From Escherichia coli O157:H7 (GTDB lineage Bacteria; Pseudomonadota; Gammaproteobacteria; Enterobacterales; Enterobacteriaceae): a DNA stretch of 64,000 nt. The stretch lies in the NCBI RefSeq assembly GCF_013167455.1, contig NZ_CP038328.1; one strand, given 5' to 3'. How positions within the stretch are numbered: position 1 is the stretch's first letter; each line of letters begins with the position of its first letter. A program made the position numbers and the translations under genes. The notes under the pieces were generated by a model. It was not told the DNA's origin, did no database searches, and worked only from the letters and a program-made list of their open reading frames with translations. Positions 3,064-45,960 of this stretch are shown here, piece after piece.

Positions 3064-3124
3064 CCTAAAGAATCAAGACGATCCGGTACGCGTGATTTTC
3101 TTTTCACATTAATCTGGTCAATAA

Positions 3125-3155
3125 CCTTGAATAATTGAGGGATGACCTCATTTAA
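3125..3155 (+). promoter_or_regulatory. Candidate sigma32 heat-shock promoter for clpB
   Basis: ccttgaa (3125..3131), 14-nt spacer, cctcattta (3146..3154); resembles the CTTGAAA / CCCCATnT sigma32 consensus. Not validated. Confidence 0.45.
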
Positions 3156-3192
3156 TCTCCAGTAGCAACTTTGATCCGTTATGGGAGGAGTT

Positions 3193-5766
3193 ATGCGTCT
3201 GGATCGTCTTACTAATAAATTCCAGCTTGCTCTTGCCGATGCCCAATCACTTGCACTTGGGCACGACAACCAATTTATCGAACCACTTCATTTAATGAGC
3301 GCCCTGCTGAATCAGGAAGGGGGTTCGGTTAGTCCTTTATTAACATCCGCTGGCATAAATGCTGGCCAGTTGCGCACAGATATCAATCAGGCATTAAATC
3401 GTTTACCGCAGGTTGAAGGTACTGGTGGTGATGTCCAGCCATCACAGGATCTGGTGCGCGTTCTTAATCTTTGCGACAAGCTGGCGCAAAAACGTGGTGA
3501 TAACTTTATCTCGTCAGAACTGTTCGTTCTGGCGGCACTTGAGTCTCGCGGCACGCTGGCCGACATCCTGAAAGCAGCAGGGGCGACCACCGCCAACATT
3601 ACTCAAGCGATTGAACAAATGCGTGGAGGTGAAAGCGTGAACGATCAAGGTGCTGAAGACCAACGTCAGGCTTTGAAAAAATATACCATCGACCTTACCG
3701 AACGAGCCGAACAGGGCAAACTCGATCCGGTGATTGGTCGTGATGAAGAAATTCGCCGTACCATTCAGGTGCTGCAACGTCGTACTAAAAATAACCCGGT
3801 ACTGATTGGTGAACCCGGCGTCGGTAAAACTGCCATCGTTGAAGGTCTGGCGCAGCGTATTATCAACGGCGAAGTGCCGGAAGGGTTGAAAGGCCGCCGG
3901 GTACTGGCGCTGGATATGGGCGCGCTGGTGGCTGGGGCGAAATATCGCGGTGAGTTTGAAGAACGTTTAAAAGGCGTGCTTAACGATCTTGCCAAACAGG
4001 AAGGCAACGTCATCCTGTTTATCGACGAATTACATACCATGGTCGGCGCGGGTAAAGCCGATGGCGCAATGGACGCCGGAAACATGCTGAAACCGGCGCT
4101 GGCGCGTGGTGAATTGCACTGCGTAGGTGCCACGACGCTTGACGAATATCGCCAGTACATCGAAAAAGATGCTGCGCTGGAACGTCGTTTCCAGAAAGTG
4201 TTTGTTGCCGAGCCTTCTGTTGAAGATACCATTGCGATTCTGCGTGGCCTGAAAGAACGTTACGAATTGCACCACCATGTGCAAATTACTGACCCGGCAA
4301 TTGTTGCAGCGGCGACGTTGTCTCATCGCTACATTGCTGACCGTCAGCTGCCGGATAAAGCCATCGACCTGATCGATGAAGCAGCATCCAGCATTCGTAT
4401 GCAGATTGACTCAAAACCAGAAGAACTCGACCGACTCGATCGCCGTATCATCCAGCTCAAACTGGAACAACAGGCGTTAATGAAAGAGTCTGATGAAGCC
4501 AGTAAAAAACGTCTGGATATGCTCAACGAAGAACTGAGCGACAAAGAACGTCAGTACTCCGAGTTAGAAGAAGAGTGGAAAGCAGAGAAGGCATCGCTTT
4601 CTGGTACGCAGACCATTAAAGCGGAACTGGAACAGGCGAAAATCGCTATTGAACAGGCTCGCCGTGTGGGTGACTTGGCGCGGATGTCTGAACTGCAATA
4701 CGGCAAAATCCCGGAACTGGAAAAGCAACTGGAAGCCGCAACGCAGCTCGAAGGCAAAACTATGCGTCTGTTGCGTAATAAAGTGACCGACGCCGAAATT
4801 GCTGAAGTGCTGGCGCGTTGGACGGGGATTCCGGTTTCTCGCATGATGGAAAGCGAGCGCGAAAAACTGCTGCGTATGGAGCAAGAACTGCACCATCGCG
4901 TAATTGGTCAGAACGAAGCGGTTGATGCGGTATCTAACGCTATTCGTCGTAGCCGTGCGGGGCTGGCGGATCCAAATCGCCCGATTGGTTCATTCCTGTT
5001 CCTCGGCCCAACTGGTGTGGGGAAAACAGAGCTTTGTAAGGCGCTGGCGAACTTTATGTTTGATAGCGACGAGGCGATGGTCCGTATCGATATGTCCGAG
5101 TTTATGGAGAAACACTCGGTGTCTCGTCTGGTTGGTGCGCCTCCGGGATATGTCGGTTATGAAGAAGGTGGCTACCTGACCGAAGCGGTGCGTCGTCGTC
5201 CGTATTCCGTCATCCTGCTGGATGAAGTGGAAAAAGCGCATCCGGATGTCTTCAACATTCTGTTGCAGGTACTGGATGATGGGCGTCTGACTGACGGGCA
5301 AGGGAGAACGGTCGACTTCCGTAATACGGTCGTCATTATGACCTCTAACCTCGGTTCCGATCTGATTCAGGAACGCTTCGGTGAACTGGATTATGCGCAC
5401 ATGAAAGAGCTGGTGCTCGGTGTGGTAAGCCATAACTTCCGTCCGGAGTTCATTAACCGTATCGATGAAGTGGTGGTCTTCCATCCGCTGGGCGAACAGC
5501 ACATTGCCTCGATTGCGCAGATTCAGTTGAAACGTCTGTACAAACGTCTGGAAGAACGTGGTTATGAAATCCACATTTCTGACGAGGCGCTGAAACTGCT
5601 GAGCGAGAACGGTTACGATCCAGTCTATGGTGCACGTCCTTTGAAACGTGCTATCCAGCAGCAGATCGAAAACCCGTTGGCACAGCAAATACTGTCTGGT
5701 GAATTGGTTCCGGGTAAAGTTATTCGCCTGGAAGTTAATGAAGACCGGATTGTCGCCGTCCAGTAA
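3193..5766 (+). CDS. clpB: Chaperone ClpB (Hsp100 disaggregase), 857 aa
   Basis: ATG at 3193 after a ggagg RBS; N-terminus [18 protein letters not shown]; two AAA+ modules with Walker A motifs GEPGVGKT and GPTGVGKT. Confidence 0.95.
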
Positions 5767-5771
5767 TGATA

Positions 5772-5798
5772 AAACGAGCCCTTCGGGGCTCGTTTTTG
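5772..5798 (+). terminator. Rho-independent terminator downstream of clpB
   Basis: aacgagccc-ttcg-gggctcgtt hairpin followed by a T-run. Confidence 0.7.
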
Positions 5799-5859
5799 TC
5801 TATAAGTTAGACGGAAAAGACTATATTTAAGATGTTTTGCCTGAAAAATGAGCGAACGA

Positions 5860-5915
5860 TAAAGTTTTTATATTTTTCGCTTGTCAGGCCGGAATAACTC
5901 CCTATAATGCGCCAC
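5860..5915 (+). promoter_or_regulatory. rRNA operon promoter P1 with AT-rich UP element
   Basis: -35 ttgtca (5881..5886), 16-nt spacer, -10 tataat (5903..5908), GC-rich discriminator gcgccacc; AT-rich stretch immediately upstream. Confidence 0.75.
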
Positions 5916-5994
5916 CACTGACACGGAACAACGGCAAACACGCCGCCGGGTCAGCGGGGTTCTCCTGAGAATTCCGGCAGAGAAAGCAAAAATA

Positions 5995-6035
5995 AATGCT
6001 TGACTCTGTAGCGGGAAAGCGTATCATGCACACCC
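5995..6035 (+). promoter_or_regulatory. rRNA operon promoter P2
   Basis: -35 ttgact (6000..6005), 16-nt spacer, -10 tatcat (6022..6027), then GC-rich cacaccccgcgccgctg. Confidence 0.7.
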
Positions 6036-6063
6036 CGCGCCGCTGAGAAAAAGCGAAGCGGCA

Positions 6064-6076
6064 CTGCTCTTTAACA
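6064..6076 (+). promoter_or_regulatory. boxA antitermination element in the rRNA leader
   Basis: tgctctttaacaa matches the boxA consensus; a second copy (tgctctttaaaaa) lies in the 16S-23S spacer near 7984. Confidence 0.6.
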
Positions 6077-6208
6077 ATTTATCAGACAATCTGTGTGGGC
6101 ACTCGAAGATACGGATTCTTAACGTCGCAAGACGAAAAATGAATACCAAGTCTCAAGAGTGAACACGTAATTCATTACGAAGTTTAATTCTTTGAGCATC
6201 AAACTTTT

Positions 6209-7750
<1,542 letters not shown>

Positions 7751-7835
7751 CCTTAAAGAACTGTACTTTGCAGTGCTCACACAGATTGTCTGATAGAAAG
7801 TGAAAAGCAAGGCGTCTTGCGAAGCAGACTGACAC

Positions 7836-7911
7836 GTCCCCTTCGTCTAGAGGCCCAGGACACCGCCCTTTCACGGCGGTAACAGGGGTTCGAATCCCCT
7901 AGGGGACGCCA
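7836..7911 (+). tRNA. gltW: tRNA-Glu in the 16S-23S spacer
   Basis: 76-nt GTCCCCTTCGTCTAGAGGCCCAGGACACCGCCCTTTCACGGCGGTAACAGGGGTTCGAATCCCCTAGGGGACGCCA; TTCACGG anticodon loop context; encoded CCA end. Confidence 0.95.
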
Positions 7912-8104
7912 CTTGCTGGTTTGTGAGTGAAAGTCGCCGACCTTAATATCTCAAAACTCATCTTCGGGTGATGTTTGAGATATTTGCTCTTTAAAAATCT
8001 GGATCAAGCTGAAAATTGAAACACTGAACAACGAAAGTTGTTCGTGAGTCTCTCAAATTTTCGCAACATGATGATGAATCGAAAGAAACATCTTCGGGTT
8101 GTGA

Positions 8105-11007
<2,903 letters not shown>

Positions 11008-11099
11008 ACAACGCCGAAGGTGTTTTGGCGGATGAGAGAAGATTTTCGGCCTGATACAGATTAAATCAGAACGCAGAAGCGGTCTGATAAAACAGAATT

Positions 11100-11219
11100 T
11101 GCCTGGCGGCCTTAGCGCGGTGGTCCCACCTGACCCCATGCCGAACTCAGAAGTGAAACGCCGTAGCGCCGATGGTAGTGTGGGGTCTCCCCATGCGAGA
11201 GTAGGGAACTGCCAGGCAT
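11100..11219 (+). rRNA. rrfG: 5S ribosomal RNA
   Basis: TGCCTGGCGGCC...GAACTGCCAGGCAT, 120 nt. Confidence 0.95.
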
Positions 11220-11230
11220 CAAATTAAGCG

Positions 11231-11260
11231 AAAGGCCATCCGTCAGGATGGCCTTTTTGC
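11231..11260 (+). terminator. rRNA operon rho-independent terminator
   Basis: aggccatcc-gtca-ggatggcct hairpin followed by tttttg. Confidence 0.7.
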
Positions 11261-45776: not shown

Positions 45777-45960
45777 AGTGGCTCATTCACCGACTTATGT
45801 CAGCCCCTTCGGGACGTGCTACATAAAATTCGAATGACGCACAACAAGGTGCCTGCCGTCCAACTTCTGATATCAGCGTAGCTATATCAACCATCGGGCG
45901 AAACGTCGAGTTAGGCACCGCCTTATTCCATAACAAAGCCGGGTAATTCCCGGCTTTGTT
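45777..45960 (+). ncRNA. glmY: GlmY small regulatory RNA (184 nt)
   Basis: From AGTGGCTCATTCACCGACTTATGTCAGCCCCTTCGGGACG... to the terminator hairpin aaagccgggtaattcccggctttgtt; sits between purL and glrK. Confidence 0.8.

What the first reader, a model, noticed from the sequence alone, without database searches (positions are those of the whole stretch)
5800..6208. Complete rRNA operon control region upstream of the 16S gene (dual promoters, UP element, boxA)
Both P1 (ttgtca-N16-tataat) and P2 (ttgact-N16-tatcat) are intact, with an AT-rich UP element and a leader boxA. The operon (16S, tRNA-Glu, 23S, 5S) is full length. A second boxA-like copy sits in the 16S-23S spacer near 7984. This is expected biology, recorded for completeness.
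Basis: partly seen in the sequence, partly recalled or inferred. Interest (0 to 1): 0.15.

Follow-up and report, generated by a model that had tools for sequence, protein, structure and literature searches.

The report
Ordinary E. coli rrnG promoter region
This is the well-known control region (two promoters plus antitermination signals) of the rrnG ribosomal RNA operon of an E. coli O157:H7-type chromosome, and it is ordinary apart from a harmless-looking one-base natural variant in the second promoter.

Summary
Window 5767-6208 is the spacer between clpB and the 16S gene of rrnG in an E. coli O157:H7-type chromosome (100% identical to many O157:H7 genomes).

- **P1:** TTGTCA 5881-5886, N16, TATAAT 5903-5908.
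- **P2:** TTGACT 6000-6005, N16, TATCAT 6022-6027.
- **UP region:** 5857-5877, 86% A+T.
- **Leader signals:** exact boxA at 6065-6077, preceded by a boxB hairpin and followed by boxC at 6090-6099.
- **Spacer boxA:** a 12/13 copy at 7985-7997.
- **Operon:** complete, with 16S 6209-7750, tRNA-Glu 7836-7911, 23S 8105-11007 and 5S 11102-11217.

From P1 -36 to +36, and from boxA to the 16S gene, the sequence is identical to K-12 rrnG and rrnB.

The P2 -10 hexamer TATCAT is in none of the seven K-12 operons. It is a minority allele: the exact 66-base stretch occurs in 505 of 5,418 E. coli records, and at rrnG in the three strains I checked. The operon is also a gene-conversion mosaic: its P1-P2 interval is rrnB/A/C-like, its 16S equals K-12 rrsB, and its spacer is rrnC-type.

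This is already known biology of low interest.

The parts
5768..5800 (+). Intrinsic terminator of clpB (clpB stop codon at 5764-5766). It marks the upstream edge of the rrnG control region.
   Evidence: The RNA fold of 5766-5805 gives a hairpin of -20.3 kcal/mol, z = -6.15, followed by a U run. clpB is annotated as ending at the matching position in the near-identical O157 record. The pattern scan missed it because the maximal stem absorbs the T run.
5798..5812 (.). Fis-consensus match GTCTATAAGTTAGAC, centred at -112 from the P1 start (putative upstream Fis site).
   Evidence: It matches 10 of 11 specified positions of GNNYAWWWWWTRNNC. About 0.4 such matches are expected per 185 bases of this window, and 3 were found. 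It is invariant in K-12, a non-O157 E. coli and E. albertii rrnG. Binding was not tested.
5839..5853 (.). Fis-consensus match GCCTGAAAAATGAGC, centred at -71. This is where Fis site I sits at rrnB P1 (own knowledge).
   Evidence: It matches 10 of 11 consensus positions. Base 5848 is A here and G in K-12 and E. albertii. Binding was not tested.
5857..5877 (+). UP element position of P1 (-60 to -40), CGATAAAGTTTTTATATTTTT.
   Evidence: It is 86% A+T, against 48% for the window. It is identical in K-12 rrnG and E. albertii rrnG. The defining position of -60 to -40 is from PMC7822876.
5881..5917 (+). rrnG P1 core: -35 TTGTCA 5881-5886, 16-base spacer, -10 TATAAT 5903-5908, G+C-rich discriminator GCGCCACC 5909-5916, and inferred start A5917.
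   Evidence: Promoter scan. The core is base-for-base identical to K-12 rrnG, rrnB, rrnA and rrnC P1. The start nine bases after the -10 hexamer is taken from rrnB P1 (PMC7822876) and was not measured here.
6000..6027 (+). rrnG P2 core: -35 TTGACT 6000-6005, 16-base spacer, -10 TATCAT 6022-6027.
   Evidence: Promoter scan. K-12 has G at 6018 and T at 6025. The exact 66-base stretch around it occurs in 505 of 5,418 E. coli records.
6039..6062 (+). boxB-like hairpin of the leader (GCCGCU...AGCGGC).
   Evidence: The fold of 6036-6066 gives -12.3 kcal/mol, z = -2.55. It is identical to K-12 rrnG and rrnB. The element order boxB-boxA-boxC after P2 is from PMC10250234.
6065..6077 (+). Leader boxA, TGCTCTTTAACAA, the NusB/NusE (S10) binding site that nucleates the rrn antitermination complex.
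   Evidence: Exact match. It is invariant in all seven K-12 operons. rrnG boxA RNA binds NusB:NusE with a Kd of about 5-8 nM (PMC2800207).
6090..6099 (+). boxC, TCTGTGTGGG, lying within the 5' strand of the 16S leader-trailer helix (about 6078-6121).
   Evidence: Exact match. The motif definition is from PMC10250234. The best leader-trailer duplex is -59.3 kcal/mol, against -28.6 +/- 4.2 for shuffled trailers.
6209..7750 (+). 16S rRNA gene (rrsG by position).
   Evidence: Rfam SSU model positions 1-1533 of 1533, 1577 bits. There are no differences from K-12 rrsB and 8 from K-12 rrsG.
7755..7798 (+). 16S trailer strand that pairs with the leader and boxC. It forms the helix that carries the RNase III site (own knowledge).
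   Evidence: Duplex prediction. The reverse-complement match to boxC lies at 7776-7785.
7836..7911 (+). tRNA-Glu(UUC) gene in the 16S-23S spacer.
   Evidence: ARAGORN and Rfam tRNA.
7945..7997 (+). Spacer antitermination signal: hairpin 7945-7984 followed by the spacer boxA TGCTCTTTAAAAA at 7985-7997.
   Evidence: The hairpin folds at -16.3 kcal/mol, z = -5.3. boxA has 1 mismatch. The stretch is identical in K-12 rrnC, and the boxA shows no difference from K-12 rrnG. A second set of elements upstream of 23S is described in PMC10250234.
8105..11007 (+). 23S rRNA gene.
   Evidence: Rfam LSU model positions 1-2925 of 2925, 2881 bits.
11102..11217 (+). 5S rRNA gene.
   Evidence: Rfam 5S, 93 bits.
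11231..11259 (+). Terminator hairpin after 5S (AAAGGCCATCC-GTCA-GGATGGCCTTT, then TT).
   Evidence: The sequence was printed. The hairpin was found by the scan, which assigned it to the minus strand because the stem extension absorbs the plus-strand T run.

Best explanation
Window 5767-6208 is the promoter and leader region of the rrnG ribosomal RNA operon of an E. coli O157:H7-type chromosome. It should work as described for K-12 rrn operons.

- **P1** is the growth-rate-regulated promoter. The RNA polymerase alpha C-terminal domains contact the A+T-rich UP element, and Fis bound upstream helps. [quoted passage not shown]
- **P2**, about 118 bases downstream, supplies more constant, basal transcription.
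- **Antitermination:** the nascent leader carries boxB, boxA and boxC. boxA recruits NusB/S10, then NusA, NusG, S4 and SuhB, to form the Rho-resistant antitermination complex. A second boxA in the 16S-23S spacer reinforces this before the 23S gene.
- **Processing:** the leader around boxC pairs with the 16S trailer to form the helix needed for 30S maturation.

Shown here: the sequence elements, their positions, and their identity to the characterised K-12 sequences. Inferred from K-12 work: start sites, protein binding and regulation.
For: - **Synteny:** the order clpB, 16S, tRNA-Glu, 23S, 5S, kgtP matches K-12 rrnG and annotated O157 genomes.
- **Source:** the window is 99.986% identical to an O157 chromosome, and 5700-6300 is 100% identical to many O157:H7 genomes.
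- **Promoters:** both were found by the consensus scan, 3 sites against 0.6 expected.
- **Identity to K-12:** P1 from -36 to +36, and everything from boxA to the 16S gene, is identical to K-12 rrnG and, but for one base at 6198, to rrnB. boxA and its flanks are invariant in all seven K-12 operons.
- **Upstream elements:** the UP region is 86% A+T, and Fis-consensus matches lie at -71 and -112. The UP region and the -112 match are unchanged in E. albertii rrnG while bases between them vary; the -71 match keeps its flanking G and C there but differs at two inner positions.
- **Leader and spacer signals:** exact boxA and boxC; boxB and spacer hairpins.
- **Leader-trailer duplex:** -59.3 kcal/mol, against -28.6 for shuffles.
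- **rRNA and tRNA genes:** full-length.
- **Literature:** the defining features of rrn P1 are from PMC7822876. The boxB-boxA-boxC arrangement and second set are from PMC10250234. rrnG boxA binding to NusB:NusE is from PMC2800207.
Against: Nothing contradicts it.

- There are no transcript or binding data for this sequence, so start sites, Fis binding and UP function rest on identity to K-12.
- The P2 -10 hexamer is TATCAT, which none of the seven K-12 operons has. The exact strength of P2 in this strain is therefore not covered by K-12 experiments.
- The Fis matches are to a degenerate consensus.
Confidence: 0.97

Rival explanations
1. P2 is not functionally equivalent to the K-12 promoter. 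The T-to-C change in the -10 hexamer (TATTAT to TATCAT, base 6025), together with the G-to-A change in the spacer (6018), weakens or re-tunes rrnG P2 in this lineage. If so, 'intact dual promoters' overstates the case.
For: TATCAT is absent from all seven K-12 P2 promoters. It is also absent from the seven P2 copies found in representative genomes of Escherichia species, including E. albertii rrnG, which all read TATTAT. It is therefore a derived minority allele, exact in 505 of 5,418 records.
Against: - The change is at the fourth position of the hexamer. K-12 already departs from the consensus there (T instead of A), and this is the least conserved -10 position (own knowledge).
- The key positions T1, A2 and T6, the -35 hexamer and the 16-base spacing are all kept.
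- The allele persists at rrnG in at least two kinds of strain with different linked upstream bases: O157, and two blood isolates of about 4.9-5.0 Mb. That argues against a strongly deleterious change.
- The spacer A at 6018 is the commoner state: K-12 rrnC, H, D and E have it, as do all seven hits in the species scan.
Confidence: 0.12
2. The motifs are chance consensus matches in an A+T-rich intergenic region and do not mark real promoters or antitermination sites.
For: On motif counts alone, boxA with up to 2 mismatches (2 found, 1.8 expected) and boxC with up to 1 mismatch (4 found, 3.1 expected) are not enriched in the 64-kb window.
Against: The region is orthologous to, and mostly identical with, the experimentally characterised K-12 rrnG and rrnB control regions. 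The exact boxA and boxC copies lie in the expected order between P2 and the 16S gene, and the other boxA lies just before the 23S gene. The elements are conserved in E. albertii.
Confidence: 0.01
3. The operon is not a 'pure' rrnG but a recombinant whose parts come from other rrn operons, so comparison with K-12 rrnG alone would mislead.
For: - The P1-P2 interval 5973-5993 matches K-12 rrnB/A/C rather than K-12 rrnG.
- The 16S gene has 0 differences from K-12 rrsB and 8 from rrsG.
- The 16S-23S spacer has the same length as K-12 rrnC and matches it at about 98-99% of aligned positions. It is 86 bases shorter before tRNA-Glu than K-12 rrnG.
- rrnB P2 of an O157:H7 strain is itself a mosaic, with its junction inside P2.
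Against: This refines the main explanation rather than contradicting it. The unique upstream part (terminator, Fis matches, UP) and both flanking genes are those of rrnG. Every functional element is retained.
Confidence: 0.85

Closest known systems
E. coli K-12 MG1655 rrnG control region (clpB-rrsG spacer, NC_000913.3 about 2731158-2731599, complement)
   Same: - Same flanking genes and same terminator.
- Same Fis-consensus matches and UP sequence.
- Identical P1, boxB, boxA, boxC and leader down to the 16S gene.
   Different: There are 13 differing alignment columns between 5848 and 6025. One lies in the -71 Fis match (5848 A/G) and one at +37 of P1 (5953). A cluster at 5973-5993 lies between P1 and P2. 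Two lie in P2: the spacer at 6018, and the -10 hexamer at 6025, TATCAT against TATTAT.
E. coli K-12 rrnB P1/P2, the best-studied rRNA promoters
   Same: Identical from the P1 -35 hexamer through the leader, except for 4 bases (5973, 6018, 6025 and 6198). The P1-P2 interval of the window is closer to rrnB than to K-12 rrnG.
   Different: The upstream region (UP and Fis sites) is locus-specific and differs in sequence. The flanking gene is murI rather than clpB. The P2 -10 hexamer is TATTAT in rrnB.
Phage lambda nut sites (boxA-boxB) and the N antitermination complex
   Same: [quoted passage not shown]
   Different: The order is boxB-boxA-boxC in rrn. No N protein is involved; S4 and SuhB take part instead. 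rrn boxA binds NusB:NusE about tenfold more tightly than nut boxA.

Membership tests
Enterobacterial rrn operon control region (tandem P1/P2 promoters plus nut-like leader) | Lies directly upstream of a complete 16S - spacer tRNA - 23S - 5S operon. | tested here: met
   Rfam and ARAGORN give full-length 16S, tRNA-Glu, 23S and 5S at 6209-11217.
Enterobacterial rrn operon control region (tandem P1/P2 promoters plus nut-like leader) | P1 with near-consensus hexamers and a 16-base spacer. | tested here: met
   TTGTCA, N16, TATAAT at 5881-5908. Identical to K-12 rrnG, B, A and C.
Enterobacterial rrn operon control region (tandem P1/P2 promoters plus nut-like leader) | G+C-rich discriminator (-8 to -1) and a start site nine bases after the -10 hexamer (PMC7822876). 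| tested here: inconclusive
   The discriminator GCGCCACC at 5909-5916 is present and identical to rrnB P1. The start at A5917 is inferred, because no transcript data are available.
Enterobacterial rrn operon control region (tandem P1/P2 promoters plus nut-like leader) | A+T-rich UP element at -60 to -40 that is contacted by alpha-CTD. | tested here: inconclusive
   The sequence criterion is met: 86% A+T at 5857-5877, identical in K-12 and E. albertii rrnG. The contact and the stimulation cannot be tested with these tools.
Enterobacterial rrn operon control region (tandem P1/P2 promoters plus nut-like leader) | Fis binding sites upstream of the UP element. | tested here: inconclusive
   Consensus matches are centred at -71 and -112 (10 of 11 each; about 0.4 expected per 185 bases). 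Binding was not tested. The paper mapping rrnG Fis sites (PMC100122) is not held.
Enterobacterial rrn operon control region (tandem P1/P2 promoters plus nut-like leader) | A second promoter, P2, roughly 120 bases downstream of P1. | tested here: met
   TTGACT, N16, TATCAT at 6000-6027, which is 119 bases downstream of the P1 hexamers. The -10 hexamer differs by one base from K-12.
Enterobacterial rrn operon control region (tandem P1/P2 promoters plus nut-like leader) | boxB hairpin, boxA and boxC in that order after P2. | tested here: met
   Hairpin 6039-6062, boxA 6065-6077 exact and boxC 6090-6099 exact. The order is as in PMC10250234.
Enterobacterial rrn operon control region (tandem P1/P2 promoters plus nut-like leader) | A long leader-trailer helix that encloses the 16S rRNA. 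| tested here: met
   The duplex 6078-6121 with about 7755-7798 gives -59.3 kcal/mol, against -28.6 +/- 4.2 for shuffled trailers. This is a prediction, not a probing experiment.
Enterobacterial rrn operon control region (tandem P1/P2 promoters plus nut-like leader) | A second boxA set upstream of the 23S gene. | tested here: met
   TGCTCTTTAAAAA at 7985-7997 follows a hairpin at 7945-7984. It is identical in K-12 rrnC and rrnG.
rrnG specifically (as opposed to rrnB or another operon) | Chromosomal position between clpB and kgtP, with tRNA-Glu in the spacer. | tested here: met
   The gene order in the window's near-identical O157 record and in K-12. tRNA-Glu was found.

The most novel reading that the evidence does not exclude
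The derived P2 -10 allele TATCAT is carried at rrnG by O157:H7 and some other E. coli lineages. It might measurably change basal or stationary-phase transcription of this one operon, giving lineage-specific tuning of rRNA operon usage that gene conversion maintains or spreads.
Probability: 0.1. Interest if true: 0.2.

Novelty: already known. Interest (0 to 1): 0.06.

Why it matters
It matters little beyond correct annotation. The region is the textbook rRNA promoter and antitermination module, and confirming it anchors the window as the clpB-rrnG-kgtP locus of an O157:H7-type E. coli.

The small extras are the minority P2 -10 allele and the mosaic make-up of the operon. They illustrate concerted evolution of rrn operons by gene conversion. 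They could matter to anyone using K-12 promoter data to model rRNA expression in pathogenic lineages.

Tried and rejected
- **Terminator scan:** the pattern scan found no terminator in 5600-6400. The clpB terminator is real. It was missed because the maximal stem absorbs the T run, so I folded it instead. The same happened to the post-5S terminator, which the scan assigned to the minus strand.
- **Motif counts:** boxA and boxC are not enriched in the window on counts alone. I therefore based the argument on placement and orthology.
- **Fis site map:** the paper that maps UP and Fis contributions at all seven P1 promoters (PMC100122) is not held. The Fis site positions at rrnB are from my own knowledge.
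- **Failed search:** one literature search failed on a two-letter term.
- **Small ORFs:** eight ORFs of 21-60 aa overlap the spacer. None has any support and they lie across promoter and leader elements, so I rejected them as chance.
- **Minus-strand promoter:** the promoter-like site at 5847 to 5820 matches only 9 of 12 positions. I treat it as chance.
- **Species scan:** the scan for P2 variants found only 7 copies, all TATTAT. Draft assemblies often lack rrn operons, so it says little about frequency outside E. coli.
- **Other O157 operons:** I did not determine the P2 alleles of the seven operons of one O157 genome beyond rrnG and rrnB.

Full report
**What the window is.** The whole 64-kb window is 99.986% identical to the chromosome of E. 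coli O157 strain FDAARGOS_293. Bases 5700-6300 are 100% identical to many O157:H7 genomes, where the match lies between clpB and a 16S rRNA gene. The annotated gene order around the finding is raiA, bamD, rluD, yfiH, clpB, 16S, tRNA-Glu, 23S, 5S, kgtP, yfiM, pssA. This is the order around rrnG in K-12 MG1655. The operon is therefore rrnG by position.

**Checking the observation.**
- **Promoters.** The consensus scan of 5600-6400 finds P1 (TTGTCA 5881-5886, 16-base spacer, TATAAT 5903-5908; 11 of 12) and P2 (TTGACT 6000-6005, 16-base spacer, TATCAT 6022-6027; 10 of 12). It also finds one weak minus-strand match. That is 3 sites against 0.6 expected from shuffles.
- **UP region.** For rrnB P1 the start lies nine bases after the -10 hexamer (PMC7822876). 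Applying that here puts the start at A5917 and the -60 to -40 interval at 5857-5877. That interval is 86% A+T, against 48% for the window.
- **boxA.** The leader copy is exact at 6065-6077. The only other match in the window with up to two mismatches is TGCTCTTTAAAAA at 7985-7997.
- **Genes.** Rfam and ARAGORN give full-length 16S (6209-7750), tRNA-Glu(UUC) (7836-7911), 23S (8105-11007) and 5S (11102-11217).

**Other elements in the region.**
- clpB ends at 5766 and is followed by a strong terminator hairpin at 5768-5800 (-20.3 kcal/mol, z = -6.15).
- Two 15-base matches to the Fis consensus GNNYAWWWWWTRNNC (10 of 11 specified positions each) are centred at -112 (5798-5812) and -71 (5839-5853). 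About 0.4 such matches are expected per 185 bases of this window. From my own knowledge, -71 is where Fis site I lies at rrnB P1.
- After P2 come a boxB-like hairpin (6039-6062), boxA, and an exact boxC, TCTGTGTGGG, at 6090-6099. This order is the one described for rrn leaders (PMC10250234).
- The leader from 6078 to about 6121 pairs with the 16S trailer at about 7755-7798. The predicted duplex is -59.3 kcal/mol, against -28.6 +/- 4.2 for shuffled trailers. The reverse complement of boxC is found at 7776-7785.
- The spacer boxA is preceded by its own hairpin at 7945-7984 (-16.3 kcal/mol, z = -5.3).
- A hairpin followed by a T run at 11231-11259 follows the 5S gene.

**Comparison with K-12.**
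- Alignment with K-12 rrnG and rrnB, and with all seven K-12 operons, shows two blocks of identity. One runs from the P1 -35 hexamer to +36. The other runs from just after the P2 -10 hexamer to the 16S gene. In both, the window is identical to K-12 rrnG and, apart from one base at 6198, to rrnB.
- boxA and the leader downstream of it are invariant, but for one or two bases, in all seven operons.
- The locus-specific upstream part (terminator, Fis matches, UP) matches K-12 rrnG with one change, 5848 A for G, inside the -71 Fis match.
- In E. albertii rrnG the -112 match and the UP sequence are unchanged while bases between them differ. The -71 match keeps its flanking G and C but differs at two inner positions. 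This pattern is expected of functional sites.

**What differs.**
- **P2 -10 hexamer.** It reads TATCAT here. K-12 has TATTAT in rrnG, B, C and A, and TAATAT in rrnH, D and E. The exact 66-base stretch around the window's P2 occurs in 505 of 5,418 matching E. coli records. Nearly all the others are one or two mismatches away.
- **Where the allele sits.** In two non-O157 blood isolates it also lies downstream of clpB, at rrnG. Those strains have different linked bases upstream, so the allele is real and not confined to O157.
- **Ancestral state.** All seven copies found in representative genomes of Escherichia species, including E. albertii rrnG, read TATTAT. TATCAT is therefore derived. The change is at the fourth hexamer position, which already departs from consensus in K-12. 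The most important positions are kept, so I expect little functional effect. That is an inference.
- **P1-P2 interval.** Bases 5973-5993 resemble K-12 rrnB/A/C rather than K-12 rrnG.
- **16S gene.** It has no differences from K-12 rrsB and eight from rrsG.
- **16S-23S spacer.** It has the same length as K-12 rrnC and matches it at about 98-99% of aligned positions. It is 86 bases shorter before tRNA-Glu than K-12 rrnG and rrnB.
- **rrnB in O157:H7 strain 4276.** Its P2 is a mosaic whose -35 hexamer and spacer are B-type. Its -10 hexamer and boxB region are H/D/E-type.

Together these are the familiar marks of gene conversion among rrn operons.

**How it works.** The anatomy supports the standard model.
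- P1 is driven by UP-element contacts of the alpha C-terminal domains and by Fis. [quoted passage not shown]
- P2 gives basal transcription (own knowledge).
- boxA RNA binds NusB:S10 tightly; for rrnG boxA the Kd is about 5-8 nM (PMC2800207). This nucleates the antitermination complex with NusA, NusG, S4 and SuhB (PMC10250234). A second set of signals sits before the 23S gene.
- The leader-trailer helix is essential for 30S biogenesis (PMC10250234).

The sequences and their positions are shown here. Binding, start sites and regulation are inferred from identity with K-12.

**Verdict.** The finding is real, correctly interpreted and ordinary. It is an already known system, and I score interest at about 0.06. 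The only mildly new observation is the minority P2 -10 allele. The chance that it has a measurable regulatory effect is low, about 0.1, and the interest would be modest even if it did.

Noticed in passing
window 6018 and 6025 (P2 spacer and -10 hexamer): The P2 -10 hexamer is TATCAT, an allele absent from all seven K-12 operons. The exact 66-base stretch around it is in 505 of 5,418 E. coli records, and it lies at rrnG in O157 and in two non-O157 blood isolates. Species-representative Escherichia genomes all have TATTAT.
   Followed up: partly
window 5973-5993: The interval between P1 and P2 resembles K-12 rrnB/A/C rather than K-12 rrnG. This suggests gene conversion between operons.
   Followed up: partly
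L011:560-905 (rrnB of O157:H7 strain 4276): rrnB P2 of this O157:H7 strain is a mosaic. Its -35 hexamer and spacer are of the B/A/C/G type. Its -10 hexamer (TAATAT) and the boxB region are of the H/D/E type, so a conversion junction lies inside the promoter.
   Followed up: no
window 7751-7835 and 6209-7750: The 16S to tRNA-Glu spacer is 85 bases, as in K-12 rrnC, whereas K-12 rrnG and rrnB have 171. The 16S gene is identical to K-12 rrsB and differs from rrsG at 8 positions.
   Followed up: yes
window 5848: An A/G polymorphism lies inside the -71 Fis-consensus match. A here fits the A/T-rich core of the consensus; K-12 and E. albertii have G.
   Followed up: no
window 5836-6087 (+): There is a sub-threshold Rfam match to Ysr197 ('Yersinia sRNA 197'): 77 bits against a gathering score of 167, E = 2e-18. 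It covers the UP element, P1, P2 and the leader up to boxA. That Rfam 'sRNA' family seems to correspond to the rrn promoter-leader region rather than to a separate sRNA.
   Followed up: no
window 7989-8097 (+): The Rfam family StyR-44 (123 bits) matches the tRNA-Glu to 23S spacer, starting inside the spacer boxA. It is therefore the 23S leader of the rrn transcript.
   Followed up: no
window 61188-62282 (+): yphC carries an internal stop at codon 75. It is annotated as a pseudogene in the near-identical O157 record.
   Followed up: partly
window 8510 and 9524: The window's 23S gene has one extra G at each of these two places compared with strain FDAARGOS_293. These are possibly sequencing errors in one of the two assemblies.
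   Followed up: no
window 5847 to 5820 (- strand): A weak promoter-like site (TTTTCA, N16, TATAGT; 9 of 12) points towards clpB, between the two Fis-consensus matches. It is probably chance in A+T-rich DNA.
   Followed up: no
window 3074-3212, 29261-30092 (-), 32876-33090, 36503-36579 (-), 45777-45924: Other Rfam matches above threshold are RyfD upstream of clpB, AsrC (antisense to rseC), the rncO leader, ohsC (next to shoB) and GlmY. All are expected for this part of the E. coli chromosome.
   Followed up: no
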